Shown here in pieces: positions 29,333 to 63,912 of a stretch of 64,000 bases of DNA. The notes beneath the pieces were generated by a model. It worked only from the letters and a program-made list of their open reading frames with translations, did no database searches and was not told where the DNA came from. How positions within the stretch are numbered: the first letter of the stretch is position 1; each line of letters begins with the position of its first letter. This DNA is from Chiloscyllium plagiosum (Eukaryota): NCBI RefSeq assembly GCF_004010195.1, contig NC_057717.1, positions 69,451,573 to 69,515,572 on the forward strand, read 5' to 3'. The translations under genes were made by a program, and so were the position numbers.

Positions 29333-29459
29333 GTGAGTGTTTTTTTATTCATGTCTCTCTTTGTTACTGTCTCAATGTTAGTCTGCCTCAGAAATGTAAA
29401 AGACTCAGGCATCATTGTATCAGCATTATTCTCATGGGTTCTTTTTTTTATTTTTAAAG

Positions 29460-29764
29460 GTGTCCAGTCGGAGATTGTTTTAACTCAACTAGAGGCAGAG
29501 AGTGGCCATCCCGGAGCCACCCTGAAACTGACCTGTAAAACCAGCGGCTTCGATCTTACCAGTTACTGGATGCACTGCGTCCAACAGGTTCCCGGACAGG
29601 GGCTGGAGTGGCTGCTTAATTACAAAAGTTCATCCAGCAGTAACTATGCCCCAGCGATTAAGAATCGATTTATTGCGTCCAAAGACACTTCAAACAACAT
29701 ATTCGCGTTGGAGATGAAGAGCATGAAGATCGAAGACACCGCCATCTATTCCTGTGCAAGATAC
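29460..29764 (+). CDS. IGHV: Shark IgM-type VH exon, germline and unrearranged; open frame but W41C and YYC>YSC
   Basis: [51 protein letters not shown]...[39 protein letters not shown]; typical elasmobranch IgM VH framework. Confidence 0.95.
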
Positions 29765-29803
29765 CACAGCGAGAGGAACCAGGGCTGGACCCTTTCAAAA
29801 AAC
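29765..29803 (+). other. VH 23-RSS
   Basis: Heptamer CACAGCG (29765-29771), 23-bp spacer, nonamer TCAAAAAAC (29795-29803). Confidence 0.88.
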
Positions 29804-30163
29804 AGCTCAAGGGGATATTTTACCAATTTCATCGTTAACTGAGGGTCAGTGCCCGTTTTAAATTCAGTTCAACCAACTGCGATCTGAAGCACACCTCGGG
29901 CTGCCTTTTACAACCCTATCATAGAGGAAACATACCATTGAAACTAAAAAACTGGGTGATATCATGGGACAATGTTTTTGGCATGTCGTATGTACTGCTT
30001 ACTCTTCCACCAATTAAATGCTTGGACATGATGTTAGTTTTAATGTATCTCACAGTTCGGGAAATGACTGCTAAACGTGTTCTGTAAACCATGACGTTAA
30101 TTCTAAACACTGTCAGCACTAAATGTCTATTTCTCATGAAAATTGATACCCAGAGTGTCTTCC

Positions 30164-30243
30164 AGAAAATGTACGGGTCTAACTCGCTGTGATACTACAG
30201 TGGGTCACAGTGATGCCGATAGTGACATCCTCATACAAAAACC
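30164..30243 (+). other. IGHD: IgM D1 segment (ATACTACAGTGGGT, 30192-30205) with 5' 12-RSS and 3' 22-RSS
   Basis: 5' side: degenerate nonamer AGAAAATGT, 12 bp, CGCTGTG. 3' side: CACAGTG (30206-30212), 22 bp, ACAAAAACC (30235-30243). Core and 12/22 arrangement match shark IgM D1. Confidence 0.92.
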
Positions 30244-31937
30244 ACTGACAAGGGTTTGTCGCAAGTTGGTGATGACTAAAACTGAAGGAGAATGTGAAAA
30301 CTCCATGCAGACAGATGCCCGAGGCGGGAGTTGAACCTGGATCCACCGGCACTGTGAGGCAACAGTGCGAACCACTGAGCCACCGTGCCACCCCCTTAAT
30401 GTGCCTGTCCATGCTTTCCGACAGTTGAAGAATTCACAAATTTAGAGAAGACAGGAACTGGAGGGTAGTAGAGCACATTGTTTATTTAGGCACGGAGAAT
30501 AGAGTAAGATTAATTTCAATTAACATACTGGCGCGATTTTTGGAATGTAGCAATCTGAATGAGATTGCTCACATTAGTTAAGTGTTGATGACCATTTATT
30601 TCGACATCAGTTAAAGCGGGGAATGCAGACAGAAACTGTTTTCAATTCATACATTTTTTTTAAATCGTTGTTTAGAAAGAGGAATCAAGGAAAATAACTT
30701 GCCATTGCTAAGCACATCTGAGAGTAAATACTTGCCCTAATGTATCCAACAGAGATGCATTCACACAATGGAATGTATTGGTTTTGAGCAGTGCGTGCAA
30801 CATTTCCAAAGTTCAAAAAATATTTTAAGTATATGCAGAAATAATTTAGAGAATATTCTATTTCCGCCGGAACTGTGCTTGTATTGGTGAAATGGTACAC
30901 CACAATAATTTTCTTATTTACAAGCACGATTAAGTTTATTAAACCAGTAGGTAATCTTACTTCACTGTGAAAACGTTCTGAGAAGCATTGATGTTTTCTC
31001 TCTGGCTAGTCTCTATTATGAAAGTTAAATTACAGTGAATACATTTGATGTGACGAATTGAGCAGATATATCTTCTCAGATCATTACTGTTGTACAATGA
31101 GTTCCCGTGTTATCTCGACCGAGTTGTCAGCTGTTCCTGACCAGTTGTAAATCGACCGGTTCGGACACCTGAATCTCAGACAGTTCAATTTCATGTGGTG
31201 CTTCAAAACCACTTTTGTCTGCCAGATATTAGGCGCCACAGAATTGAAAGACCTGACTGAATTGTTACAATCAGATTAAACACTTCAGTAACCAAAGTCA
31301 TATTGTAAGACCCCTGAAGTCAGTTGTTAGCAATGAACGATATATCATTCAGTGAGACAGAGAGAAATATGCTGCATATTTTCTTTGTGACTCTCTTGTC
31401 AGTGACACATTTAGTGGCACAAGGTAGAATAAAATTATTAATAACTTATTGTCAGCATGTAATGTTACTGGTAAAGGTGATGTTACACTTCAAAAATTTC
31501 TAATCTATTTCAACCTAAGCAGACCATCTGGTGCAGCAACATACACAGGGTTAAAGGGAAGGGAGTTGTCAGTTGAAATCCAGTGACAGTAAATTTATGG
31601 CAGCGCAAATCCTAGTTTTATTCCTCTACAGTTCCCATAGAGCTTGAAAACTCGGAATTGCTATCAAAGCATTCTTGGATAATTTTTGAAATGCTACTTT
31701 CATCGTTTAAGCATTTTATAACAATCCCTGGTTGCTGAAATCCTTGGTTAATTATTAACAAATTTGTGCACTCTCAAACCGGTGGTCTGTGTTGTCGGAG
31801 ATTATGTTCCGATCTGGTATAATGTTGTGGCAGTGAGTCTGACTCTGAGGCAGATGGTTTGTGTACATTTACAACCTGTTAGAGAGGAATGTAATACCAT
31901 GTCTTATCCGGTTAATTCGGGCGAAAACACATTGAGT

Positions 31938-35400: not shown

Positions 35401-35543
35401 CTCTCTAAATTTCTGACTTTATGGTGGAGTTGGCTGAAAGTTGGAAGGTGAGGAGAAAGTGAGGTCTGCAGATGCTGGAGATCAGAGATGGAAATGTGTT
35501 GCTGGAAAAGCGCAGCAGGTCAGGCAGCATCTAGGGAACAGGA

Positions 35544-35580
35544 GAATCGACGTTTCGGGCATTAGCCCTTCTTCAGGAAT
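35544..35580 (-). ncRNA. Minimal hammerhead motif in the PLE 3' terminal repeat
   Basis: ATTC-CTGAAGA-A-GGGC(TAAT)GCCC-GAAA-C-GTC-GATTC, downstream of the GIY-YIG coding region. Confidence 0.7.
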
Positions 35581-36141
35581 GAGGAAAGTTGGTCCAGAAG
35601 GCTAAGATAAAATAGAGGGAGGAGGGACTTGGGGGAGGGGCGTCGGAAATGAGATAGGTGGAAAGAGGTCAAGGTGAGGGTGATAGGTCAGACTGGGATG
35701 GGGGCGGAGAGGTCGGGAAGAAGATTGCAGGTTAGGAAGGCGGTGCTGAATTTGATGGATTTGACTGAGACAGGCTGGGGGAGGGGAACTGAGGAAACTG
35801 GTGAAATCCAGTTCATCCCTTGTGGTTGGAGGGTTCCTAGCCGGAAGATGAGGCGTTCTTCCTCCAACCGTCGTTTCGCTGTGGTCTGACGATGGAGGAG
35901 TCCAAAGACCTGCATACCCTTGGTGGAGTGGGAGGGGGAATTGAAATGTTGAGCCACAGGGTGGTTGGGTTGGTTGGTCCGGGTGTCCCAGAGGTGTCCT
36001 CTGAAACACTCCGCAAGTAGGCGGCCTGTCTCCCCAATATAGAGGAGGCCACATCGGGTACAGAGGATGCAATAGATGATATGTGTGGAGGTGCAGGTGA
36101 ATCTGTGGCAGATATGGAAGTTTCCTTTGGGGCCTTGGAGG

Positions 36142-36549
36142 GAGGGGAGGTGTAGTCCAGGTAGCTGTGGGTACAGGGGGCAAGATGGGAGGAGGTGTAG
36201 TCCAGGTAGCTGTGGGTACAGGGGGCAAGATGGGAGGAGGTGTAGTCCAGGTAGCTGTGGGTACAGGGGGCAAGATGGGAGGAGGTGTAGTCCAGGTAGC
36301 TGTGGGTACAGGGGGCAAGATGGGAGGAGGTGTAGTCCAGGTAGCTGTGGGTACAGGGGGCAAGATGGGAGGAGGTGTAGTCCAGGTAGCTGTGGGTACA
36401 GGGGGCAAGATGGGAGGAGGTGTAGTCCAGGTAGCTGTGGGTACAGGGGGGCAGGATGGAGGAGGTGTAATCCAGGTAGCTGTGGGTACAGGGGGCAAGA
36501 TGGGAGGAGGTGTAGTCCAGGTAGCTGTGGGTACAGGGGGCAGGATGGG
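36142..36549 (+). repeat. 45-bp minisatellite, about 9 copies
   Basis: Unit GGGAGGAGGTGTAGTCCAGGTAGCTGTGGGTACAGGGGGCAAGAT. Confidence 0.97.
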
Positions 36550-36769
36550 AGTTGGAAGGTGGTGATCCAGTGAGGAGGTAGGTTGGTGATGTGGTAGACT
36601 TTGAGCTGATAGGCCGTGAGGTGTTGGGTGGCTGCTGGGTGAGCTTGCATGCACCTAGTCTGGCAGGGTGGCATCAAAGCAAATCATAATGGTCACAAGG
36701 AAATAAGTTGGTCACATTGTGCTTGGAATGTGAATGGTCGTTTGAGCAGCAATGCATGGTGTCTCCCTG

Positions 36770-37110
36770 GTACCAAGATGGTTAATTGAGTGGCCAGGAG
36801 GCTGCAGGGCTGGTTAGTTGTGAGGTGGGGAGTGAGTCATGTTGGGTAATTGAGTGGTAAACAGGGTGTCAGACTGGTTAGTTCAGACATTGGCAAGACG
36901 TCAGACTGGTTAGTTGAGAATTTGGCAGAGTGTCGGACTGGTTAGTTGCGAGATGTGCAGGCTGTCGGGCTGGTTAGTTGAGAGTTTGGCAGGGTGTCAG
37001 ACTGGTTATTTAAGAGATGGGCAGAGTGTCAGACTGGTTAGCTGAGAGCTGGGCAGGCTGCCGGGCTGGTTAGTTGAGAGGTGGGCAGGGTGTCGGGAAG
37101 TTTAGTTGAT
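36770..37110 (+). repeat. G-rich ~31-32-bp degenerate tandem repeat in the J-CH1 intron (paralog 57160-57520)
   Basis: Recurring GGCAGGGTGTCRGACTGGTTAGTTGAGAG. Confidence 0.88.
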
Positions 37111-38317
37111 CGCCTTATCAGAATGCTGGGCTGTTTCGATGACAGAAGGTTACTGTACTGATGTGTCAAGTGGATATGATGTCAAAACTTAAAGCTCGGA
37201 GTGTGGCGAAGGGCTGATGGGAACAGAGCTAGGATGCAATTTGCACAGGTTGACTTGGGTAAGATGAGAGGTTAGTGGTGAAGGTCTGAGGTCATATCTG
37301 GGGGAGTGGTATCCTGTCAGGGGTTGTGAAAAGTCTGATGTCAGGACTAGATTCACCAAGGACCAGGTGCAGTGTAGCAGGAATGGAATTGAGTGAAAGA
37401 AATCGAGATTACATTGTCGTTCGGAATATGGATTGCCTTGAATGTGTGTTATCTCTTGAGATGAGGGTCATGTGTTCCGAGGGTGGATGAGCGTGTAACA
37501 GTGTAGGGGTTGTCAATGTGAGTGGAAATTGAGGTTGAGAGAGAGAGTCAGAGCGGTGGTTAGTCTGAGAGATTAGAGTTTTACCATGAACTGCTTGTAA
37601 GTTTAATAGTTATTGGAGTAAGAGTACTTGTTCATTTCTCGAATCATATTCACATAAATGCTCAGTTCAGCTAGCTGTCGCACTCCAAAGTCTCTGAACC
37701 TTAATGGTCCTCTATGTTTCTGAGGCCTCCAGAATTCAGATAATTGTCAAGTCGATCATTGAGCTTCCAGATAATTGGCATGATATCAGCTGTGACAGAC
37801 ATTCTCTCAGTCCCAGTGCCCTGCAACTGCCTTCTTCACAGAGAGGAGTTTCTGACTGACATTGATAAGCGAGGAAGGGACACTGCACTCGAAACGTTCA
37901 CTCTGCTTTCTCTCCACTGATGCTGCCAGTTGTTGGGTTTCTCCAGCAACTTCGGTTTTTATTTCCAATCCCAACTTCCACCTTTTCTTGGTTTGCATTT
38001 TGTGAAACGACTATGCTCGTCACCTGCAATCCAATGAAAGTGTTAGTTGGTGAGCGTTTCTAACAGTTACTTTTCGTGGGATCAGGGCGTTCTTATTTTT
38101 AAGTTATATCGTAATGGTCAAGGTCGAGGGCATATTTCTGACGAGGGAACCAATAGATCATGATCAACGACTGATTGGAAACAAAAATAAACTTAAGGTA
38201 TGCTGAAGATTTTAGCAGGAACACACTGGCATACATTTACAGCTGAGGAAACATTTAGGTAACCAATAAGTTCGAATTATCAGAAAGTAACTTGCTCAAT
38301 TGATCATTCTATCCTAG

Positions 38318-38585
38318 AGACTGTATCTACCCCCACACTTTATGGACTTGCCTCCTCCTGTCAGCAACACAACGCCGACGGTTCTGTGATCTTTGGTTGT
38401 GGTGACGTGGAAGAAAGGTGGGCAGCCAATCACGACTGCATTGAAGACTTATCCATCCGTGAGAAACAAGAAGGGAACTTACACCCTGAGCAGCCAGTTA
38501 ACCCTGCCTGAGTCAGAAGCGGATTGCAGCAAAATCTCCTGTGAGGTTCAACACAGCGGGTCAAAGCAGAGCACTGGAATGCCAT
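38318..38585 (+). pseudogene. IGHM: IgM CH1 exon (+ cluster), frameshifted
   Basis: AG acceptor; [27 protein letters not shown], then a frame change to [33 protein letters not shown]...[15 protein letters not shown]; donor GTAAG. Length 268 bp (3n+1); the LAMDYSP-type segment is missing. Confidence 0.93.
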
Positions 38586-40653: not shown

Positions 40654-40957
40654 GCCCATTTCTCCCGCCAACTCTTCTTCTGACCGTGGGTCCCAGTGAA
40701 GAAATCGCAAGTAGCAAGTTTGCAACCATCATCTGTTCAATCATTGATTTCCATCCGAAGGAAATCTCCGTGCCATGGTTGAAAAATGGCCGTGGATTCT
40801 GTTGTCTTCACGTCTCCTGTGTGTGAGGCGGATGGGAACTTCTCGGTGATGAGTCGGCTGACAGTCCCTTATGGTGAATGGTTCAACAACGCAGTCTATA
40901 CCTGCCAGGTCACTCATGGAGAGAACACTCAAAGTCAAAACATCACCACACACCAGG
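40654..40957 (+). pseudogene. IGHM: IgM CH2 exon (+ cluster), 5-bp deletion and dead splice donor
   Basis: [45 protein letters not shown] / [43 protein letters not shown]. Lacks the AATCC present in the paralog; donor reads ATAAG instead of GTAAG. Confidence 0.93.
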
Positions 40958-42791
40958 ATAAGACATACATACGAGAGAACTAGAAATCATTTTGAACTCC
41001 CATGTGAATCAGATACACACATTGATCAAATTTAGTGAACAGCACTAAGGTGTACAGCATCCCATTCACAAACGTGTCATGTATTTCAGTTTGAGTGTTA
41101 CATTGGCATTGCTCATTATTCAACATTATGTCAAATCAGAAAAGCATGTTTCCCTTTATATTGAAGACATATAGGCAGTGAGCTGGATTAATAGTCTTTT
41201 TTAAAGTAGTTTGTTGGCTGACCACATTTTTGGAGAGGCAGAGTGCCGAATCCATACCTGGTGACTTGCTTAAGGATAAAGGGTTGGGGTGGGGGAGGGG
41301 TGCGTGTCTGGTGGGGGCCGGGGTGCAGGGTCAGAGAAGTATTTCTTTGAAACAGAGAGCATGCTGAGAGGCCGAGATTGGATGAACGTGGAGTAAATGT
41401 ATTGGCCAGTCGGCTAGAGTAGGACATGAGTGCATATCCTCGGAGTCAAAGGGTGCACCATTTGGCATTGACATGGGGAAGAATTTCTTCAGCCAGAGGG
41501 TGGTGGATGTGTGGAATTAATTGCTCAGAGGGTTATGGAGGCCAAGTCAGTGATTGTATTTAAGGTGGCGATAGATCGGTTCGTACATGGAGAAGGCTGG
41601 AGAATGGAGTAGAAGAACATACCAGCCATGATCGAATGGCAGGGCAGACTCGATTGGCCGAACTGCCTCATTCTGCACCTTTACCTTACTATCTTGTGAC
41701 ATCGTAAAATGTGCAGCGACCCTTTTTTCAAAAGAGATCAAAATCTGTTCAGTGCTTCATTTCCAGTTCAGGAATGACTTGTTGTCCTTGGGCATTGTAC
41801 GTCATAGATTTTATCTGGTACTGAGCTCTTCAACTTCATTCATGGGACCAGGCCGCAGACCAAGTTGGTATCACATTTGATTAATCTGGATAAACATGAC
41901 CTAATTGTGCCTCTTTAAGATACTCTCTGCAATTAGTGGATGTGGCAGGAGAATACATTCTAGTGGTAAGGCGATGAACGATCTAGGAATTTGAGTCAGA
42001 CTGATTGAGCCCAGGTGAGGATGGAAATGTTCATGCATGAGCAGTGGAAGTCTGAATAATACTCGCGCAAATTTCCATCAAGTTGGTAGAATAATTTAAG
42101 ACACTCGTATTTGTTTAGTCTTTGTTCTACTAAGGAATTCACTGTTTTGTTTTTAGATCTACTCCAAATTTGACAGGAGTGATAATATCTCATGGTATGT
42201 TTTAGAGAATGATCTCACACCAATAATGTCAATTATTTTCAATAACGTTAAAGATATTGATTAGAATTTCTGTTACTGATCACTGCCCCGTAACACCTTA
42301 TATCCTCTGCAAATACATGAGAACAAAGACAATAATTATGATTGATTACAGTTTGCCCAAAATTCAGGATGTAATTTGGCATTCAGAATGCCCAGCAGCA
42401 TTTGCAAGTAAGTTTCATGAACATAGAAATGAAGTCGTTATATTCAGATTACTCTTGTCACAAGTATCAATGGATGGTCGTAAGTGAGAGATGAACTCTG
42501 GAAGGAAGGTAATTCCATGTGTTACGCCATGGTATCTTTGATTTTACTTTTTCACAGGTTTCACTTGTTACAAAGCCAGTGTTCTTTATGAATGATTACA
42601 CGGGGCATGTTATAGATAATAACAAATGTTTTCACAAATCAAAATATATAAACAACAGGAATCATCATTTCAGCAATAGTTGGAAGCTGCCATTTCAAAG
42701 TGGTTTCTTCACTTCATGTGGGAGTAGCCTGAAGACTCGGTGTTTTGATTCTACAGAGGCATTTTTCATTGATTTGATTTTTGTTTCATAG

Positions 42792-43100
42792 AGGTTAATG
42801 AGTGCCACGATTACACAGTTAAAATTCTACCACCGCCAGTAGAACAGGTCTTACTGGAGGCGACGGTGACATTAACCTGTGTTGTGTCCAAGCTTCCTTC
42901 TGGAGTCAATGTCACCTGGATACAAGAAAAGAAGACTCTGAAATCAGAGATTGCTAACCAGCCTGGAGAAGATACCGACAGCGTGATCAGCATATTGAGC
43001 ATTTCTACTCAAACCTGGCTGAGTCACGTTAGTTTTGAATGCGTGGTGAATCATCCGTATCTACCGACTCCTCTGAGAGACTCCATCCGCAAGGGAAATG
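42792..43100 (+). pseudogene. IGHM: IgM CH3 exon (+ cluster); this exon is intact
   Basis: 309 bp with AG/GT boundaries; [42 protein letters not shown]...[22 protein letters not shown]. Confidence 0.93.
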
Positions 43101-50086: not shown

Positions 50087-50376
50087 TTAAGGGTGCTCGG
50101 TATGTCCCACCACACAGGAGTAAGAAGCACCGCTGGCCCACTCCTCCGCTGTAATGGATAACAGGTTGTACATGAAGAAGGAGGTGTTCTCGCTCTCCGC
50201 CATCACCTCGGTGTTCTTGTAGTTACTGGGATTCACCGGCTTGTCATTGTTTATCCATTTGATGAAGTTCTCTCGGGGGTAGAAGCCTTTCACTAAACAG
50301 GTGAGAAACCTCTGAGCGGAAACGTCTTCTGTGGGTGGCAGTAGGATAGATACTGATGGCTCCAGTAGCTTTTCTC
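50087..50376 (-). pseudogene. IGHM: IgM CH4 exon (- cluster), 3'-truncated, no secretory tailpiece
   Basis: TGCAG acceptor; [40 protein letters not shown]...[15 protein letters not shown], then unrelated TEHP*. Confidence 0.92.
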
Positions 50377-51033
50377 CTGCAGAATTTTATGAAACCAATA
50401 TAAATCAACTATAAAAATCCAGAATCAACATTGCAATTTCACTACATATTAAAATATGTCAGTTTTGTTTTTAAATTTGGGCTTTATACACTCTTATTTT
50501 CTAAACCAGCAGAATAATATCCATTCTGTTCACTAAGAGTAAAGAGTTTAATTCGAAAGTCGACTCCATGTTTCTAACCCACAACTAAGACATCCTGTAC
50601 ATTTGTCATTGCTCATGTTAAAAACACAAACCAGGTTTCTTCCCACTTTATTTGACTTATAATCATGAAAGATCACCTTTGGTCCATTCTGTTCTCAATC
50701 AGATATTTAGCTATCCTGCCATCAGACAGGATAGCCAACATACCATGAGATGTTATTACTCCTGTCAAATTTGGAGTAGATGTAAAAACTAAACCGTGAA
50801 TTCTTTAGTAGAACAAAGACTAAACAAATACGAGTGTCTTAAATTATTCTACCAACTTGATGGAAATTTGCGCGAGTATTATTCAGACTTCCACTGCTCA
50901 CTGCAAGAACATTTCCATCCTCACCTGGGCTTTCATGGTCCCAAAGTTATTTGGAGCCAATCTAAGCATGCCATGTGTGTAACTGGATCTAGATTACACA
51001 TGGAATACTTTGTTCTTTCCTCTCACCGCTCAC

Positions 51034-51342
51034 CATTTCCCTTGCGGATGGAGTCTCTCAGAGGAGTCGGTAGATACGGATGGTTCACCACACATTCAAA
51101 ACTAGCGTGACCCAGCCAGGTTTGAGTAGAAATGCTCAATTTGCTGATCACGCTGTCGGTATCTTCTCCAGGCTGGTTAGCAATCTTTGATTTCAGAGTC
51201 TTCTTTTCTTGTGATCAGGTGACATTGACTCCAGAAGGAAGATTGGGCACAACACAGGTTAATGCCACCGTCGCCTCCAGTAAGAAATGTTCTACTGGCG
51301 GTGGTAGAATTTTAACTGTGTAATCGTGGCACTCATTAACTC
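51034..51342 (-). pseudogene. IGHM: IgM CH3 exon (- cluster) with nonsense mutation
   Basis: 309-bp paralog of 42792-43100; the conserved Trp codon TGG has become TGA at 51215-51217. Confidence 0.92.
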
Positions 51343-52157
51343 CTATGAAACAAAAATCAAATCAATGAAAAATGCCTCTTTGGAATCAAAACACCGAGCC
51401 TTCAGGCTACTCCCACATGAAGTGAAGAAACCACTTTGAAATGACAGCTTCCAACTATTGCTGAACTAATGGTTCCTGTTGTTTATATATTTTGATTTGT
51501 GAAAACATTTGTTATTATCTATAACATGCTCCGTGTAATCATTCATAAAGGACACTGGCTTTGTAACAAGTGAAACCTGTGAAAAAGTAAAATCAAAGAT
51601 ACCATGGCGTAACACATGGAATTACCTTCCTTCCAGAGTTCTTCTCTCACTTACGACCATCCATTGATACTTGTGACAAGAGTAATCTGAATATAACGAC
51701 TTCATTTCTATGTTCATGAAACTTACTTGCAAATGTTGCTGGGCATTCTGAATGCCAAATTACATCCCCAATTTTGGGCAAACTGTAATCATACTTATTG
51801 TCTTTGTTCTCATGTATTTGCAGAGGATATAAGGTGTTACGGGGCAGTGATCAGTCACAGAAATTCTATTGAATATGTTTAATGTTATTGAAAATAATTG
51901 ACATTATTGGTGTGAGATCATTCTCTAAAACATACCATGGGATGTTATTACTCCTGTCAAATTTGGAGTAGATGTAAAAACAAAACAGTGAATTCCTTAG
52001 TAGAACAAAGACTAAACAAATACGAGTGTCTTAAATTATTCTACCAACTTGATGGAAATTTGCGCGAGTATTATTCAGACTTCCACTGCTCACTGCAAGA
52101 ACATTTCCATCCTCACCTGGGCTCAATCAGCCTGACTCAAATTCCGAGATCGTTCAG

Positions 52158-52285
52158 GGCTTATGCCCGAAACGTCGATTCTCCTGTTCCCTGGATGCTG
52201 CCTGACCTGCAGCGCTTTTCCAGCAACACATTTCCAGCTCTGATCTCCAGCATCTGCAGACCTCACTTTCTCCATCCCTACTGTA
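52158..52285 (+). mobile_element. PLE terminal-repeat mini-insertion, specific to the - IgM copy
   Basis: Absent at the paralogous site ~41965-41990 (GGTAAGGCGATGAACGATCT). Confidence 0.85.
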
Positions 52286-53309
52286 GCCTTACCACTAGAA
52301 TGTATTCTCCTGCCACATCCACTAATTGCGGAGAGTATCTTAAAGAGGCTCAATTAGGTCATGTTTATCCAGATTAATCAAATGTGATAACAACTTGGTC
52401 TGCGGCCTGGTCCCATGAATGAAGTTGAAGAGCTCAGTACCAGATAAAATCTATGACGTACAATGCCCAAGGACAACAGGTCATTCCTGAACTTGAAATG
52501 AAGCACTGAACACATTTTGAGTTATTTTGAAAAAAAGGTCGCTGCACATTTTACCATGTCATTTTGAGACCACAAGATAGTAAGATAAAGGTGCAGAATG
52601 AGGCAGTTCGGCCAATCGAGTCTGCCCTGCCATTCGATCATGGCTGGTATGTTCTTCTACCCTATTCTCCAGCCTTCTCCATGTACTAACCGATCTATCG
52701 CCACCTTAAATACAGTCACTGACTTGGCCTCCATAACCCTCTGCAACAATGAATTCCACACATGCACCACCCTCTGGCTGAAGAAATTCTTCCCCATCTC
52801 AGTGCCAAATGGTGCACCCTTTGACTCCGAGGATATGCCCTCATGTCCTACTCTAGCCTACTGGCCAAAACATTTACTCCACGTTCATCCAATCTCGGCC
52901 TCTCAGCATGTTCTATGTTTCAACGAAATACCTCTCTGACCCTGCACCGGCCCCCACAAGACACGCACCCCTCCCCCACCCCAACCCCTTTATCCTTAAG
53001 CAAGTCACCAGGTATGGATTCGGCACTCTGCCTCTCCAAATGTAGTCAGCCAACAAACTACTTTAAAAAAGACTGTTAATCCAGCTCACTGTCTATATGT
53101 CTTCAATATAGAGGGAAACATGCTTTTCTGATTTGACATAATGTTGAATTATGAGCAATGCCAATGTAACACTCAAACTGAAATACATGACACGTTTGTG
53201 AATGGGATGCTGTACACCTTAGTGCTGTTCACTAAATTTGATCAATGTGTGTATCAGATTCACATCGGAGATCAAAATGATTTCTAGTTCTCTCGTATGT
53301 ATGTCTTAC

Positions 53310-53617
53310 CCTGGGGTGTGGTGATGTTTTGACTTTGTGTGTTTAGTCCATGAGTGGTCTGGCATGTATACACTGCGCTGTTGAACCATTCACCATAAGG
53401 GACTGTCAGCCGACTCATCACCGAGAGGTTCCCATCCGCCTCACACACAGGAGACGTGAAGACAACAGAATCCACGGATTGGCCATTTTTCAACCATGTC
53501 ACGGAGATTACCTTCGGATGGAAATCAATGATTGAACACATGATGTTGCAAACTTGCTGCTTGCGATTTCTTCATTGGGACTCACGGTGAGAAGAAGAGT
53601 TGGCAGGAGAAATGGGC
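53310..53617 (-). pseudogene. IGHM: IgM CH2 exon (- cluster), 1-bp deletion
   Basis: 308 bp; GCAACATC versus GCAACCATC in the + copy; donor GTAAG intact. Confidence 0.92.
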
Positions 53618-55678
53618 CTTTATGAAAAACATTGCATAAATTATCTGACAAATTTGATAACAAATACATTCAGTTCTATTATAACCAAGTTTTTTTATGG
53701 CTAATAGATACTAACCTTATTATTACAAGTATCATAATTATGCAGAGTGTTATAGAAGCTGAGATCAACACAGTACGATTAGCAGGACGATGTGATGACA
53801 ATGTAATGCTAAAATTACAGGTCACAGCAAGGAAGTCAAGAAGGCACAGAAATGATAGGCCAGTTAAATCAGAGGGTGAGATAGTAATGTTGGATGGTAT
53901 TTATTTCATAGAAAGGAGCATGATAAACAAGACAAATGAGTTAACGGCATAAAGGAGGAAGTTTTGATATCATGGAGACATGTTGAGAGAGGGGGAGGAG
54001 TGGCAGTTCAATATTCCAAATATAATGCCTTCAAGCGAGGCACGAAAAAATGTAGAAGGGCGGTAAAAATTGTTGATGTTCACCAGTGTGAGGGAATATG
54101 TGGGTATCGAAAACATGGAGAATTGTTGAGATTTTTTTTCAGGAATTTGGATAGATGATGTGATGTGCTGTCTTGCTGGATGAAAAATAGTTATATTTCC
54201 AGGGCAGATAAAATGTATGCCAGGTAAAGGATGAAATAGTGGGTCGCTGGCAATAATTTATAATTCCTGGCCAGAGGGGATATGGCAAAACTGCCAATGT
54301 GGTATTGTTATGCAGGACAGATGAAGGGAAAAACAATGAAACCACATGCTCGGCTCAAGCTAGACTCAGTAGTAGGGAAGACATTGTAACTATGGAGAGG
54401 CGAATTAACCTTCATCTGGAAGAGTAATCAACAATTCTCAGCACGAATATATTGAGAGGAAGTCATGTCTGAGCAATTTGATGGTAGTTTTCGCAGAAAT
54501 AAGTCGATGTCCAGATGATAGTAAAGATCAGAGCCAGGTGAGACCAAGTCAATTTGACGAATTGAATCCTGAGGTAGCTGAGTGGCGGAGTGCAGAGGAT
54601 AATGGCCATAGGATGTTTGAGTGGCTGGAGGTATATGTCTAGTGCTGTTCTGCAGGATTCAGTGTTGATTTATTGATGTCTCTATTATGTTAAAGTGATT
54701 TAGAATATACTGCAGGAGATTTGGCTAGTAAGTTCACAGATGAAGCGAAAATTGCCGTGTTTGCAGGTTCTGACCATGATAGCTTTAGATTGCAGCAAGA
54801 TACAGACGGGTTGGCCACTTGTACTGAGAAATGGCAAATTGAAATCATTCTGGATAAGTCTAAGGTGATGCACTTGGTCAGAAGAAACTAAGAGATATTA
54901 TGTTTTGAATGGTGGAACCCTGAAAAGGATTTCATGCTCATCGATCCCTTAGAGTAATGTGGCAGGGGGATAAAAAGGCTAAGAATGTGTGAAGAGTATT
55001 TGCTTTTATGAGCCAAGACATTTACATTAGGTGTTGGGAGATGATACTGGAAATTAATGAAATACTGGTTAAGCCAGACATGAAGCATCGTGTGTAGTAT
55101 AGGACTGCATGTTATGGAAGGAATGTGATTAGACAGAAGGCAGCATTGTTGAGATATTCCAGGATTTTTCCTGGGCTTGAAGTCTTTAAGTATGAAATGT
55201 GATTCACCAAAATGGGGTTTTTCTTGGAGCAGAGAAGATTGAGAGAGAAGATGATTGTGATGTCTGGAATTATAGTAGACATACACAGAGTAAACAGAAC
55301 AAAACATTTTCCCTTAATGGATGGAGCAATGTCTCAAGGGCATAGGGTTAAGGTCAGGACAGGAGGATATCGGGTAAAACAAAATCACACAGAGGTTGTG
55401 AATTTGTAGCTCAGTGCCAGTAAGTCATATCGAGGCTGAGCCCCGCATAATATGTGAGAAATATTTAGATGCATATAAGAAATGCCAAGTCACACAAAGC
55501 AATGGATCAATTGCGGACATATTGAACTGGAATAGTTAGGGATTGGCTTGGACTGGATGGGCCGAATGACCTTTTCCTGTGCTGTATATCTCTATGGCTA
55601 TGTCAAATGTATTATAACCAATGCCCTATTCATGTTAACCACAGATGTACTGTTCACCTCAGTTCCCACAAGACTTAC

Positions 55679-55946
55679 ATGTCATTCCAGTGCTCTGCTT
55701 TGACCCGCTGTGTTGAACCTCACAGGAGATTTTGCTGCAATCCGCTTCTGATTCAGGCAAGGTTAACTGGCTGCTCAGGGTGTAACTTCCCTTCTTGTTT
55801 CTCACGGATGGATAAGTCTTCAATGCAGTCGTGATTGCCTGCCCACCTTCCTTCCACGTCACCACAACCAACGATCACAGAACCGTCGGCGTTGTGTTGC
55901 TGACAGGAGGAGACAAGTCCATAAAGTGTGGGGGTAGATGCAGTCT
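55679..55946 (-). pseudogene. IGHM: IgM CH1 exon (- cluster), shared frameshift deletion plus dead acceptor
   Basis: 268 bp with the same GGTTGT|GGTGACGTGG junction as the + copy; acceptor CCTAG has become CCTTG. Confidence 0.92.
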
Positions 55947-58900
55947 CAAGGATAGAATGATCAATTGAGCAAGTTACTTTCTGTTAATTCGACCTTATTG
56001 GTTACCTAAATGTTTCCTCAGCTGTGAATGTATGCCAGTGTGTTCCTGCTAAAATCTTCAGCATACCTTAAGTTTAGTTTTGTTTCCAATCAGTCGTTGA
56101 TCATGATCTATTGGTTCCCTCGTCAGAAACATGCCCTCGACCTTGACCATTACGATATAACTTAGAAATACGAACACCCTGATCCCACGAAAAGTAACTG
56201 TTAGAAAATCTCACCAACTAACACTTGCATTGGATTGCAGGTGACGAGCATAGTCGTTTCACAAAATGCAAACCAAGAAAACGTGGAAGTTGGAATTGGA
56301 AATAAAAACCGAAGTTGCTGGAGAAACCCAACAACTGGCAGCATCAGTGGAGAGAAAGCAGAGTGAACGTTTCGAGTCCAGTATCCCTTCCTCACTTATC
56401 AATGTCAGTCAGAATCTCCTCTCTGTGAAGAAGGCAGTTGCAGGGCACTGGGACTGAGAGAATGTCTGTCACAGCTGATATCATGCCAATTATCTGGAAG
56501 CTCAATGATCGACTTGACAATTATCTGAATTTTGGAGGCCTCTGAAACATAGAGGACCATTAAGGTTCAGAGACTTTGGAGTGCGACAGCTAGCTGAACT
56601 GAGCATTTATGTGAATATGATTCGAGAAATGAACAAGTACTCTTACTTCAATAACTATTAAACTTACAAGCAGTTAATGGTAAATCTCTAATCTCTCAGA
56701 CTAAACACTGCTCTGACTCTCTCTCTCAACCTCAATTTCCACTCACATTGACCACCCCGACACCGTGACACGCTCATTCACCCTCGGAACACATGACCTT
56801 CATCGCAAGAGATAACACACATTCAAGGCAATCCATATTCCGGACGACAATGTAATCTCGATTCCTTTCACTCAATTCCACTCCTGCTACACTGTACCTG
56901 GTCCTTGGTGAATCTAGTCCTGACATTAGACTTTTCACAACCCCTGACTGGATGCCACTCCCCCAAATATGACCTCAGACCTTCACCATTGACCTCTCAT
57001 TTTACCCAAGTCAACCTGTGCACATTGAATCCTAGCTCTGTTCCCATCTGCCCTTAGCCACACTCCGAGCTTTACATTTTGACATCATATCACTTGTCAC
57101 ATCAGTACAGTAACCTTCTGTCACCGAAACAGCCCAGCACTCTGCTAAGCCGATCAACTAAACTTCCCGACACCCTGCCCACCTCTCAACTAACCAGCCC
57201 GGCAGCCTGCCCACTTCTCAGCTAACCAGTCCGACACACTGCACATCTCGCAACTAACCAGTCCGACACTCTGCCAACCTCTCAACTAACCAGTCTGACG
57301 TCTTGCCAATGTCTGAACTAACCAGTCTGACACCCTGTCTACCACTCAACTAACCAACATGACTCCCTCCTCACCTCACAACTGACCAGCCCTACGCCCT
57401 GTTGGCCTCTCAACAAATTGGCCTGGCACCCTGCACACCTCCAACTAACCAGCCCCACACCCTCCTCAGCTCTCAACTATCCAGCCCTGCAGACTGCTGG
57501 CCACTCAATTAACCATCTTGGCACGAGGGAGACACCCTGCATTGCTGCTCAAACGACCCCTCACATACAAAGCACAATATGACCAAGTTATTTCCTTGTG
57601 ACCATTATGATTTGCTTTGATGCCACCCTGCCAGACTAGGTGCATGCAAGCTCACACAGCAGCCACCCAACACGTCACGGCCTATCAGCTCAAAATCTAC
57701 CACATCACCAATCTACCTCCTCACTAGATCACTAGCTTCCAACTTTCAGTCTACTCCACCATAAAGTCAGAGATTTAGAGAGTCATGCAACACAGAAACA
57801 GGCCGTTCGGCCCAGCTCGTCCATGACAACCAGGGTTCCCAAATTAAACAAATTCTCTTAGCCGGCATTTGTCCCATATTTATCCAGATCTATTCAGTTC
57901 CTGTACCTGTCCAAATGTCTTGTAAATTTTGTAACTGGATATGCATTTGCCACTTCCTCCGGCAGTTCATTCCAATGTCAGGTACAGTTGCAACACAAAC
58001 TCCCAACCTTTATACTCAATGTTCTGTGCAATGAGAACACATTTTGCAAACACATTCTTCAACACGCCTGCTACTTGAGACACCACTTTCAACAATATAT
58101 GTATCTGATCCCTCAGGTCCCTATGTTCGACAAAACTACCCATTGCCATATCATTAACTCTGTACTAATCTATGTATCTGAATCCCCAGGTGCTTCCGTT
58201 CGACATCACGACCCAGTGCACTACCATTCACTTTAAGTTGTTTCCTGATTTCTGTTCCCAAAATGCAATGAGTCATATTCAGTTGAAACTGAACTCTATC
58301 TGCCCCTCCTCTGCCCAATGGCGCAGCTGATCATGGTCTCGTTGTACTTTTAGATAACTTTTATTGTCAATTATAGAACCAATTTTGCTGTTATGTGAAA
58401 ACTTAACAATCATGCCCCATTCAATGGTTTCAAAATTTTCAACCAATATTGTACACGGTTCAACTTTTTCCCCACATACCTATTGTTTCCTTCAAAGCTT
58501 GAAAAAACTATCACCTTCTTGAAATCATTTGATGTTTTGACCTCAAACCGTTTCTGTGACAAAGAAATCCAAAGATTCATTCTTTAGTTGAACAGTACAC
58601 AAAAGGGTTCAATCTTATCGGGTGTGGGTAAGACTGTTGACTGTTCCTCCAAACATTACTACATTTTGACTTGCAATTCTTTCATTGCCCCTTCACTCTT
58701 TCTGTATCACAGCCATGGAACTCACTTCCTGACAGAGCTGTGAAAATGTTAATACCACACAAATGTCAGAAAGTCAAGGAGGCCAAAGTCGACTGATCTC
58801 TCAAGGAGATGTAAAATGCCTAACATTTCCACGCCTATCTACAGATGCAAATAACTACTAGAAAAAATGAAGATTATTCTGGCGCTTGCGTGTCCACACA

Positions 58901-61530: not shown

Positions 61531-63825
61531 TCTTTAAAATCTCCGATTTTGCATTATTTATTCCCATGGTGAGTTGATGATGGATTATTTTAATTGATTC
61601 GAAATCTAGACTTGGTGACATAATCGACTATAGCAGCTGTTTCCTAATGAATGACTCTTCAGTTGATATATTGTTGTAAAATGTATCTATTTACTTAAAA
61701 CACATGGATTGGGAACATCTAAAGCGTGGCATGGATTAAATTACTCAGTTAATGTTACATTTTTTAATCCTGTAAATCTAATTTAATCAGATGTACAAGA
61801 ATTAATCATATCAAGTTAAACTGAAAAACTGATCAATTTAGTGAAATCAATTTGTTCTGCATCGAAATATTTGGAGCAGAATTTCTTAATCGTCTTTTCC
61901 AACGATCTCTTCCAGCCAGTAAACTTGTGTGTCGGGTACAGCGGAATTGAAAGGTAATTCTTGATTAATGATATCACAGTAATGGCATTTTTGCTCAATC
62001 GCAAGAAAATTAGAACATTATATTTTTGAAATTATATTTATATTTCTTGTTTCTTGTAAACTGTTTCAAGACAGACTTTGTGATTTAAGTAGAAAATTGC
62101 GTTCTGAGTTTTGAATTTAAGGTTTGGATTAGACCAGTCCTCAATTGTTACTTTCAAATAAAACTCGCGCCCTAACGTATCTGGTTTCCCTTCATTTCCA
62201 AATCCTTTGCGATTGGCCTTTCACTGAATATGAGGTTTAATGAAAGTTCAACTCCAAAGCTGATTGCATTGAATGAGGAAACTGGAGCAGTTTACTATCA
62301 ACAACCATGCAAACATTTCTAAAGCAATGTAGAAATAAAAAAGAGCTTCATCAATATATTAGCTTAATTTTACCTGAGCACATTCTCTCATCAACTGAAC
62401 AACGATTACCAAATCACAACACTGAGGATCAATGATGTGTTTGCAGCAAAACTGTCTCTTTGCAAGCATTTTCAACAGAACCAAGAACATTATGTAATCT
62501 CACAACAAATATCCCAAATTGGAAACCATCAAAACTGCTCACCATCACACAAGCGAATAATTAAATCAAATAGAAATAAAAAGTCATAACAGTTGCCATG
62601 GTTCTGGTATAACTTATTGAACAAAGCTTAAAGCTTTAACATTTTCGGCAACAAGTCAATTTGTTCTCAACCTGCATAGTATTTCTAATCATCTCAAACT
62701 TGTGCAGTGCACAGTAGAGCAGTGGAAGGCATCTATTGATTAATAGCCTTAAGGTCAAAATAAAATTAGTTCAATGGACAAACATTATAATTGAATGTTA
62801 TGATAAGTTAGTCTCAATTATGAAATCTGATGAATTCGGTAGCTTAAGATTTTAGTCCCAAATTTTATTTTGAATGAGGCTACTCAAAACAGACTTTAAC
62901 TAGTTTAAAATGAGAACTGAGATTGTGTATATAAAAAAAGCTCTAAAAAGTCGTCGTTTTTTTTTTCATTTCTCACACTTCCGTGTTTCTGCCTTAAGTT
63001 GGTCTTCACACAGTTACAAACGAATATAGTGTTTTCAATCAATCAGAAAAAATATTGCCCCGCGTTTAACAAATGCAGAAACGATTCGGTTCAAACAAAG
63101 AACTTCTCAGATATTCGTAATTGAGAGTCATCCAGAGAGACAATCTCTTTTGCTGATAGAAAACACCGATTATTGAAAGCATGAAAGCGCAGTTCAATTC
63201 CACAAGATGAATCAACTCATTTCAACACAATCAAATAAAGCAAAGTCAGAACCCAATCAACTTTTCAACAGAAGCAAAGAAAACACATGCAGCATCCAAT
63301 CAAAAGAATGAAATGCAGCACCGCAAGAAGATTCCATGACAGTATCCAACGTGCTTGTCATCAACAAAATTAACAATTCAAATGACAAAATGCAATCATG
63401 GTAAGAGCATTATGCACCCAGGGAATATATTCAATAAATTAACATTTTTTCATCCTGTTTAGTGATATTTCCAACATCTTTAAGTTCTTGGCATTTGTTG
63501 TCGAGAATAAAACTCACAGATAGTGGGTGTCACTAAACTTTGCTTAAACCTGACTGATTGAGAGACTTTAGGTGTTTCAAGTAATCAGCCACACAGAATG
63601 CCCATCTGATTTAAAAAAAAATATATACACTGAGCATCTGAATCCGCCACCACGACTTCAGTCATTTTCTGAGACTTAATGTAAGTCCATTGTCAGTTTT
63701 AACAAAAATCAAACTGAAGCAAACCAAGCTCAGCACAGGATCTAAGTTTCATTTAATTCAGGAATTATTCACATGAATGGAACGCTAGCAAAAAATAAAG
63801 TCACTGAGAAAGTTCACATTCTTAC

Positions 63826-63873
63826 CTGAAGTCACCGTCACCATGGTCCCTTGGCCCCAGTAATCAAGATAAT
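63826..63873 (-). CDS. IGHJ: IgM JH segment (YLDYWGQGTMVTVTS)
   Basis: WGxG motif; phase-1 donor GTAAG at 63821-63825 (minus strand). Confidence 0.96.
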
Positions 63874-63912
63874 CACAGCGTTACATTCTCTGGACTGGGT
63901 CACACAATAACT
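63874..63912 (-). other. JH 23-RSS
   Basis: On the + strand: CACAGCG (63874-63880), 23 bp, ACAATAACT (63904-63912). Confidence 0.9.

What the first reader, a model, noticed from the sequence alone, without database searches (positions are those of the whole stretch)
36560..37570. Switch-region-like G-rich tandem repeat upstream of shark IgM CH1
Seen: a ~31-32-bp repeat array (36770-37110) inside a ~1-kb block that is strongly G-skewed on the sense (non-template) strand, 0.7-1.7 kb upstream of CH1. It is retained in both clusters (57160-57520) with a different unit order and number, and includes GAGCTGGG and TAGCT motifs. Established: tetrapod S regions are G-rich, repetitive and lie in the J-C intron, while sharks are reported to switch between clusters without recognised S regions. 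Inference: this could be an R-loop/AID-targeting proto-switch element. AGCT density here is low, so it may be an ordinary minisatellite.
Basis: partly seen in the sequence, partly recalled or inferred. Interest (0 to 1): 0.7.

Follow-up and report, generated by a model that had tools for sequence, protein, structure and literature searches.

The report
Shark IgM-intron G-rich minisatellite
A G-rich 32-base tandem repeat sits just upstream of the first constant exon in this shark's IgM antibody genes and almost nowhere else in its genome, but it lacks the AGCT motifs of true class-switch regions and is missing from the IgW and IgNAR introns checked, so it is most likely a passenger minisatellite rather than an early switch element.

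Summary
The array is real: 10 and 11 units of 32 bp, G-rich on the sense strand (skew +0.55), 1.2-1.55 kb upstream of CH1. It is IgM-specific, not a dispersed repeat: 129 of 130 genome-wide matches to its core lie at the homologous spot of IgM J-C introns. Both window clusters are pseudogenes, but an intact paralogue carries 9 units. Most paralogues show 1-4 units in the assembly; read depth in two other samples suggests that many of these are collapsed longer arrays (resolved ones reach 34 units, 1.1 kb). Against a switch region: AGCT/WGCW are at or below chance, the unit and a flanking G4 motif are no better conserved than neighbouring intron, the one IgW and three IgNAR introns lack it, and it lies 6.3 kb from JH. 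Verdict: most likely a neutral minisatellite spread by cluster duplication (0.7); an R-loop-assisted proto-switch element stays possible (about 0.13). Junction mapping and DRIP would decide. The scan's unchecked notes report similar repeats upstream of shark Cmu1 in other genomes.

The parts
36779..37098 (+). 32-bp minisatellite, 10 units, cluster 1 (sense strand G-rich; ends 1.22 kb upstream of CH1)
   Evidence: G 41%, skew +0.56, AGCT 2 vs 2.0 in shuffles
36550..37570 (+). G-skewed block: array plus non-repetitive G-rich flanks shared by IgM J-C introns; the flanks are not decayed units
   Evidence: all listed genome matches of the flanks are IgM-intron loci
57165..57515 (-). paralogous array, 11 unit lengths, cluster 2; 6.3 kb downstream of JH, 1.2-1.55 kb upstream of CH1
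56690..57744 (-). G-skewed block of cluster 2 (sense skew +0.48)
35448..36549 (.). high-copy interspersed-repeat insertion present in cluster 1 only; not part of the IgM block
   Evidence: absent from cluster 2; depth 10^5-10^6 in other species' contigs
36146..36551 (+). separate 45-bp x9 array (97% matches, one TAGCT per unit) expanded inside that insertion
   Evidence: its 23-nt core has 8046 matches genome-wide
29426..29804 (+). VH exon and 23-spacer RSS of cluster 1
30190..30243 (+). D segment and 22-spacer RSS of cluster 1; JH and the J-proximal intron are deleted just downstream (near 30290)
38318..38585 (+). IgM CH1 exon, cluster 1, frameshifted by a 32-bp deletion at 38400/38401
40665..40956 (+). 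IgM CH2, cluster 1, frameshifted
42791..43093 (+). IgM CH3, cluster 1
63825..63912 (-). JH and its RSS, cluster 2 (its V lies just right of the window)
55677..55950 (-). IgM CH1, cluster 2, same frameshift
50090..53556 (-). IgM CH2, CH3 (in-frame stop) and CH4 (frame lost) of cluster 2

Best explanation
This is a 32-bp G-rich minisatellite fixed at one position of the IgM J-C intron, which likely arose once in an ancestral IgM cluster, was likely spread by whole-cluster duplication, and most likely has no role in class switching. Shown: the unit, its position, its strand, its confinement to IgM introns, and 1-34 assembled copies per cluster. Inferred: a 32-bp piece of an already G-skewed intron segment duplicated in tandem; the array then gained and lost internal units by slippage or unequal exchange while the first and last units stayed anchored to the flanks. 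This gave homogeneous long arrays (about 90% matches) in the largest IgM group and shorter, more diverged ones (63-78%) in the window's group and its sister. It drifts at the rate of the surrounding intron.
For: Confined to the homologous intron site: 129 of 130 core matches, 0 for the reversed control. The flank tree follows the IgM groups, and copy number varies inside groups: 34 vs 2 in sister rows L028/L069. Identity between groups is 0.69-0.75 in the first and last units and 0.65-0.92 in 32-column flank bins. AGCT is 2 vs 2.0 expected in array 1, and 1 vs 8.0, 0 vs 7.0 and 0 vs 4.0 in three longer arrays; WGCW is below shuffles in all five arrays tested. No canonical G4 in either window array; no R-loop initiation zone predicted in either window block alone. 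The upstream G4 motif of the major group decays like other Gs (mismatch 0.042 vs 0.043, P=0.47). No unit array in the single IgW intron or in three IgNAR introns, all gap-free. The array persists in pseudogenes, including a J-less one. Pairwise distances show no break across the array (rho 0.47 across, 0.59 and 0.50 for adjacent windows; 19 loci).
Against: Position, strand and skew are those of a mammalian S region. Skew of 0.45 or more is rare in controls (2 of 900 windows). Top-strand RGYW is enriched in the window arrays (34 vs 21.6, 0 of 200 shuffles), and the template strand has about twice the intron's WRC density (118 vs 62 per kb in L028). Arrays are probably longer than assembled: depth over the units relative to flanks is 21-40, against 5-8 simulated from the assembly. 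The 34-unit locus has a predicted R-loop-forming sequence with a 1.8-kb extension zone, and 23 of 37 major-group loci keep a canonical G4 motif 200 bp upstream. Every CH1 locus in which the homologous site was present without a gap had at least one unit. Conservation tests among paralogues cannot detect selection on composition or length alone.
Confidence: 0.7

Rival explanations
1. Proto-switch element. Transcription through the G-rich flank (a G4/R-loop initiation zone in the major group) and the array would form an R-loop, stall polymerase and expose WRC sites to AID, giving breaks that join a VDJ to another cluster's C exons.
For: IgM-intron-specific, sense-strand G-rich, 1.1-3.3 kb upstream of CH1. 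Likely 0.4-1 kb long in most clusters. Predicted R-loop-forming sequence in L028, L043 and L044. The block is present in two other species' contigs. R-loops enhance AID access in mammalian S regions (PMC2442634, passages).
Against: AGCT is the motif described as shared by mammalian and Xenopus S regions (PMC2442634), and it is absent or depleted here. The displaced strand is C-poor (WRC 46 per kb vs 52 in the intron). Absent from IgW although IgW-IgM switching is described as two-way. Similar R-loop predictions are common in control DNA (36 in 256 kb). Reviews state that sharks have no switch regions. My recollection of the abstract of Zhu et al. 2012 (not held, not seen) is that junctions lie in the intron flanking JH, whereas the array is 6.3 kb away.
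Confidence: 0.13
2. Regulatory repeat. The block is an IgM intronic enhancer and the unit multiplies a transcription-factor site, so that array length tunes cluster expression.
For: Fixed intronic position, and at least one unit wherever the site is intact. A 30-nt stretch about 145 bp downstream of the array is 0.90 conserved across paralogues, rank 7 of 475 windows.
Against: The unit is not more conserved than its flanks. The octamer-like word beside the conserved stretch is private to one cluster, and other intron windows are equally conserved. No chromatin or reporter data.
Confidence: 0.1
3. Relic of an old mobile element. The G-skewed block is a decayed retroelement fragment and the array expanded from one of its words, as the neighbouring 45-bp array did.
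For: Interspersed repeats in this genome give skews of 0.3-0.45. The adjoining 45-bp array is exactly such a case.
Against: All listed genome matches of both flanks are IgM-intron loci (43 and 40 rows; only 40 of 127 and 40 of 64 candidates were scored). Depth over 36669-37450 in other species is like that of the intron, not like a repeat. This rival concerns origin only and is compatible with neutrality.
Confidence: 0.07

Closest known systems
Mammalian IgH switch regions (Smu, Sgamma), as described in PMC2442634 (passages)
   Same: Intronic, upstream of CH1, tandemly repetitive, G-rich on the non-template strand.
   Different: 0.3-1.1 kb rather than 1-10 kb; no GAGCT/GGGGT pentamer arrays; AGCT at or below chance; not upstream of the partner isotype (IgW); no evidence of junctions or germline transcripts.
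Xenopus Smu (PMC2442634, passages)
   Same: Repetitive element in the J-Cmu intron of an ectotherm.
   Different: Xenopus Smu is AT-rich and works through AGCT-rich stretches; this array is the reverse: G-rich and AGCT-poor.
GC-rich, strand-asymmetric minisatellites (VNTRs) of vertebrates (general knowledge, no call)
   Same: 10-100-bp unit, interspersed variant units, fixed terminal units, wide copy-number range, G-rich strand, collapse in short-read assemblies.
   Different: Here it is multiplied across some 60 paralogous antibody gene clusters, not at a single locus; allelic length variation was not tested.
Shark inter-cluster isotype switching without S regions (reviews PMC4588147, PMC4279169, PMC8201067, PMC6795676; passages)
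   Same: Same loci (IgM clusters) and the same intron.
   Different: The passages seen describe no repeat in the intron and say switch regions are absent; the primary papers were not held.

Membership tests
Tetrapod IgH switch region | Lies in the intron 5' of the CH exons | tested here: met
   1.2-1.55 kb upstream of CH1 in both clusters; 1.1-3.3 kb in paralogues
Tetrapod IgH switch region | Tandemly repetitive | tested here: met
   32-bp period
Tetrapod IgH switch region | Length 1-10 kb | tested here: inconclusive
   0.32-0.35 kb in the window; up to 1.09 kb where resolved; many paralogues probably collapsed
Tetrapod IgH switch region | G-rich non-template strand (mammalian type) | tested here: met
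   G 41-46%, skew +0.53 to +0.58
Tetrapod IgH switch region | Dense AGCT/WGCW palindromic AID targets | tested here: not met
   AGCT 2 vs 2.0, 2 vs 1.8, 1 vs 8.0, 0 vs 7.0, 0 vs 4.0; WGCW below shuffles in 5 of 5 arrays
Tetrapod IgH switch region | Built from GAGCT/GGGGT/TGGGG-type pentamers | tested here: not met
   GAGCT 0-1 and GGGGT 0-1 per array; TGGGG and GGGCT were not counted
Tetrapod IgH switch region | Forms R-loops on transcription | tested here: inconclusive
   Sequence rule only: none in either window block alone or in L042 or L051; predicted in L028, L043, L044; 36 hits in 256 kb of controls
Tetrapod IgH switch region | A counterpart upstream of each switching partner's C exons | tested here: not met
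   No unit and no TRF array (period 10 or more) in 1 of 1 IgW and 3 of 3 IgNAR introns; one weak antisense single hit (score 13) in one IgNAR intron
Tetrapod IgH switch region | Germline (I-promoter) transcription through the region | not testable with these tools
   No suitable RNA data (see Tried and rejected)
Tetrapod IgH switch region | Switch junctions map inside it | not testable with these tools
   Primary junction papers not held; no B-cell genomic reads
Minisatellite / VNTR | Head-to-tail 10-100-bp unit with variant units | tested here: met
Minisatellite / VNTR | Variable copy number | tested here: met
   9-19 among diverged arrays, 8-34 among resolved homogeneous ones; part of the 1-4 class is probably collapse; variation between alleles not tested
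Dispersed TE or satellite DNA | Many copies outside Ig loci | tested here: not met
   129 of 130 core matches in IgM-intron context

The most novel reading that the evidence does not exclude
Shark IgM clusters carry an overlooked, AGCT-independent, R-loop-type proto-switch element: a G4/R-loop initiation flank followed by a 0.4-1 kb homogenised G-rich array in the J-Cmu intron, hidden so far because short-read assemblies collapse it to two units. It would serve as a break-prone acceptor for inter-cluster switching into Cmu, and would mean that a G-rich S-like region predates tetrapods or arose independently of theirs.
Probability: 0.13. Interest if true: 0.8.

Novelty: new member of a known kind. 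Interest (0 to 1): 0.36.

Why it matters
If neutral, it is a cluster-specific length marker, and a warning that shark IgM introns are misassembled at this spot: statements about what shark J-C introns lack, when drawn from short-read genomes, are unsafe. If functional, it would revise the view that sharks switch isotype without switch regions and would bear on whether G-skew/R-loops or AGCT came first. Either way it gives one defined target for junction mapping and R-loop footprinting.

Tried and rejected
Primary papers (Zhu 2012, Zhang 2013, Hsu 2016, Lee 2008, Zhu 2011) are not held, so junction positions could not be mapped; their supplements may bear on the claim. Nine literature searches listed no paper whose listing or read passages describe a tandem repeat in a shark IgM J-C intron. 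Expression: no RNA holder listed. Two single-cell RNA runs of one sample, read at about 2 and 6 in 100, put no read on the units or their near flanks; this is no test. A metagenome scan for shark CH1 loci found nothing. Folding array 1 as single-stranded DNA gave z = -1.6, not notable. The flanks are not decayed units: best profile scores are within shuffles and there is no 32-bp periodicity. The octamer-like word at 37233-37246 is private to cluster 1. My first reading that most clusters truly have two units was dropped. The 45-bp TAGCT-bearing array was rejected as an S-like element because it derives from a high-copy repeat and is in one cluster only. The test for a recombination break at the array was negative but weak (19 of 30 loci usable). 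Look-ups of earlier scan findings by sequence and by relatives returned nothing, nor did one word look-up.

Full report
1. The observation. Tandem Repeats Finder gives a 32-bp array at 36862-37096 (7.3 copies, 78% matches) and at 57154-57487 (10.5 copies, 71%). A position profile trained on 34 units finds 10 in-phase units at 36779-37098 on the + strand and 10 scoring units over 11 unit lengths at 57515-57165 on the - strand, and nothing else in the window. The two regions belong to an inverted duplication at 92-96% identity. The sense-strand skew is +0.56 in the array and +0.49 over 36560-37570. One-kb windows with |skew| of 0.45 or more are rare (6 of 230 in the window, all here; 2 of 900 in control loci), but skews of 0.3 or more are common (23% and 14%). 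GAGCTGGG occurs once, in array 1 only; TAGCT occurs once per array, at chance level. The unit order is shared; cluster 1 lacks three units and has two extra.

2. Context. The exons match shark IgM; the nearest named proteins are nurse shark and Chiloscyllium IgM heavy chains. Both window clusters are pseudogenes. CH1 is frameshifted in both; contigs of another species carry 32 more letters at 38400/38401. Cluster 1 has a frameshifted CH2 and has lost JH with about 3 kb of DNA. Cluster 2 has a stop in CH3 and a broken CH4. In cluster 2 the array is 6.3 kb from JH and 1.2-1.55 kb from CH1. The G-rich stretch 35448-36549 is an insertion found in cluster 1 only. It holds a separate 45-bp x9 array whose core has 8046 matches in the genome; it is not part of the IgM block.

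3. Genome-wide distribution. A 22-nt core pattern with one mismatch has 130 matches and the reversed control has 0. All 100 listed matches lie in loci with homology to the IgM J-C intron, and 29 of the 30 unlisted ones are accounted for in held IgM loci. The genome has at least 66 CH1 matches. Units are always on the sense strand. Of 63 loci scored, 45 show 1-4 units, 1 shows 5 and 17 show 8-34; some small contigs may be second haplotypes of other loci. Of seven CH1 loci with a long upstream stretch and no scoring unit, one has a unit with a 1-bp deletion, two have a gap at the site, and four lack the homologous segment or have it broken by gaps. A paralogue 50 kb away with open V, J and CH1-CH4 carries 9 units. 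The single IgW C1 locus of the assembly and three IgNAR loci have gap-free J-C introns with no unit array and no TRF array of period 10 or more; one weak antisense single hit (score 13, against 30-50 for typical units) lies in one IgNAR intron. Their highest 600-bp sense skews are +0.34 and +0.40, against +0.48 to +0.51 in IgM. Contigs of two other species cover the same block, one with about 290 letters between the flanks.

4. The two-unit forms are probably assembly collapses. In the largest IgM group the two units are the same as the first and last units of the resolved long arrays, whose inner units are about 90% alike. Two scaffolds run into a gap inside the array and two small contigs end in it. 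Laid on a two-unit locus, contigs of two DNA samples give a summed depth over the four unit bins of 32-40 and 21-23 times the flank. A unitig simulation from the assembly at face value gives 5-8. Adding 10-20 units per short cluster gives 20-36 when short unitigs count, but only 5-17 under stricter length cut-offs for any number added up to 30. The estimate is therefore rough (different individuals; simulated unitigs against simplified contigs), but it points to arrays several times longer than assembled.

5. Tests for a switch function. AGCT: 2 vs 2.0 and 2 vs 1.8 expected in the window arrays; 1 vs 8.0, 0 vs 7.0 and 0 vs 4.0 in three longer arrays. WGCW is below shuffles in all five. The block's 5.9 AGCT per kb is inside the control range (mean 3.4, 95th percentile 7). 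Top-strand RGYW is enriched in three arrays (34 vs 21.6 in array 1) but not in the two longest; these sites put the target C on the template strand (WRC 118 per kb there, 46 on the G-rich strand, intron 62 and 52). No canonical G4 lies in either window array. An R-loop rule finds nothing in either window block alone, finds a site with a 1.8-kb extension in the 34-unit locus and shorter ones in two others, and gives 36 hits in 256 kb of control DNA. A four-tract G4 motif 200 bp upstream is intact in 23 of 37 major-group loci and 4 of 24 others, is not found in the window's group, and its Gs mutate like other Gs (0.042 vs 0.043, P=0.47). The first and last units are no more conserved between groups than the flanks. 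Pairwise distances show no break across the array.

6. Mechanism. Best supported (0.7): a neutral minisatellite. Shown: position, strand, IgM confinement, variable copy number, no excess conservation, no AGCT. Inferred: one origin inside a G-skewed intron segment before the clusters multiplied (units are shared by lineages whose introns differ by about 25%), then turnover of inner units by slippage or unequal exchange. Rivals: R-loop-assisted proto-switch element (0.13), enhancer-associated repeat (0.10), relic of an old mobile element (0.07).

7. Comparison with what is known. [quoted passage not shown] The shark array meets position, repetition and skew, and fails AGCT, the pentamers counted and a counterpart at IgW. 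It is not a member of the S-region family; it may at most work like the R-loop half of one. Reviews (passages only: PMC4588147, PMC4279169, PMC8201067, PMC5192425, PMC6795676) say that sharks switch between clusters, IgW to IgM and back, without switch regions. PMC2435157 (passages) and PMC12227049 (passages) gave nothing on this intron. That the junctions lie in the intron flanking JH is my recollection of Zhu et al. 2012, which I could not read.

8. Novelty and verdict. Nine searches showed no description of this repeat, but the primary shark papers were not searchable. The scan's own unchecked notes describe G-rich repeats upstream of shark Cmu1 in other genomes, one with a G4 and one with a 20-bp unit; I could not test whether they are homologous, and they are leads only. 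Verdict: a real, IgM-specific, probably under-assembled G-rich minisatellite, most likely a passenger. Interest 0.36: ordinary as a repeat, but it offers a defined test of a standing question.

Noticed in passing
window 38400/38401 and 55864/55862; also L043 (G000:C8:69529278-69529463): The same CH1 frameshift deletion is shared by three neighbouring clusters, so they were duplicated after becoming pseudogenes; the fourth member of the group (L042) is intact.
   Followed up: partly
window 36146-36551: A 45-bp x9 array, 97% identical, with one AGCT per unit and predicted R-loop initiation sites, expanded from one word of a repeat with 8046 genomic matches; a 43-bp-period array of the same word lies at G000:C1:127469140-127469678.
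   Followed up: partly
window 37244-37262 (and 57000-57030): A stretch about 145 bp downstream of the array is 0.90 conserved across IgM paralogues (rank 7 of 475 windows) and reads like an acceptor followed 10 nt later by a donor; no evidence that it is used.
   Followed up: partly
L028:505-536 and the homologous spot in 23 of 37 major-group loci: Canonical four-tract G4 motif 200 bp upstream of the array; lost in the window's group; no excess conservation.
   Followed up: yes
L030/L032 (G000:C4:172600-183200): IgM-like cluster in which the array runs almost directly into CH3-like and CH4-like sequence; no CH1 or CH2 match was found, so a deletion seems to end at the array's 3' edge.
   Followed up: no
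L037 (G000:C18:58354000-58354300): Diverged 9-unit array whose downstream flank is not homologous to the IgM intron, so a rearrangement seems to end at the array's 3' edge here too.
   Followed up: no
L122/L123 (G000:C100836): Only one IgW C1 locus was found in the assembly, with two C1-like exons in tandem (60% identical).
   Followed up: no
L138:4981-5305 and L126:2024-2355: Other minisatellites near IgNAR and IgW-like V loci (21-bp x14.7; 50-bp x6.7), unrelated to the 32-bp unit.
   Followed up: no
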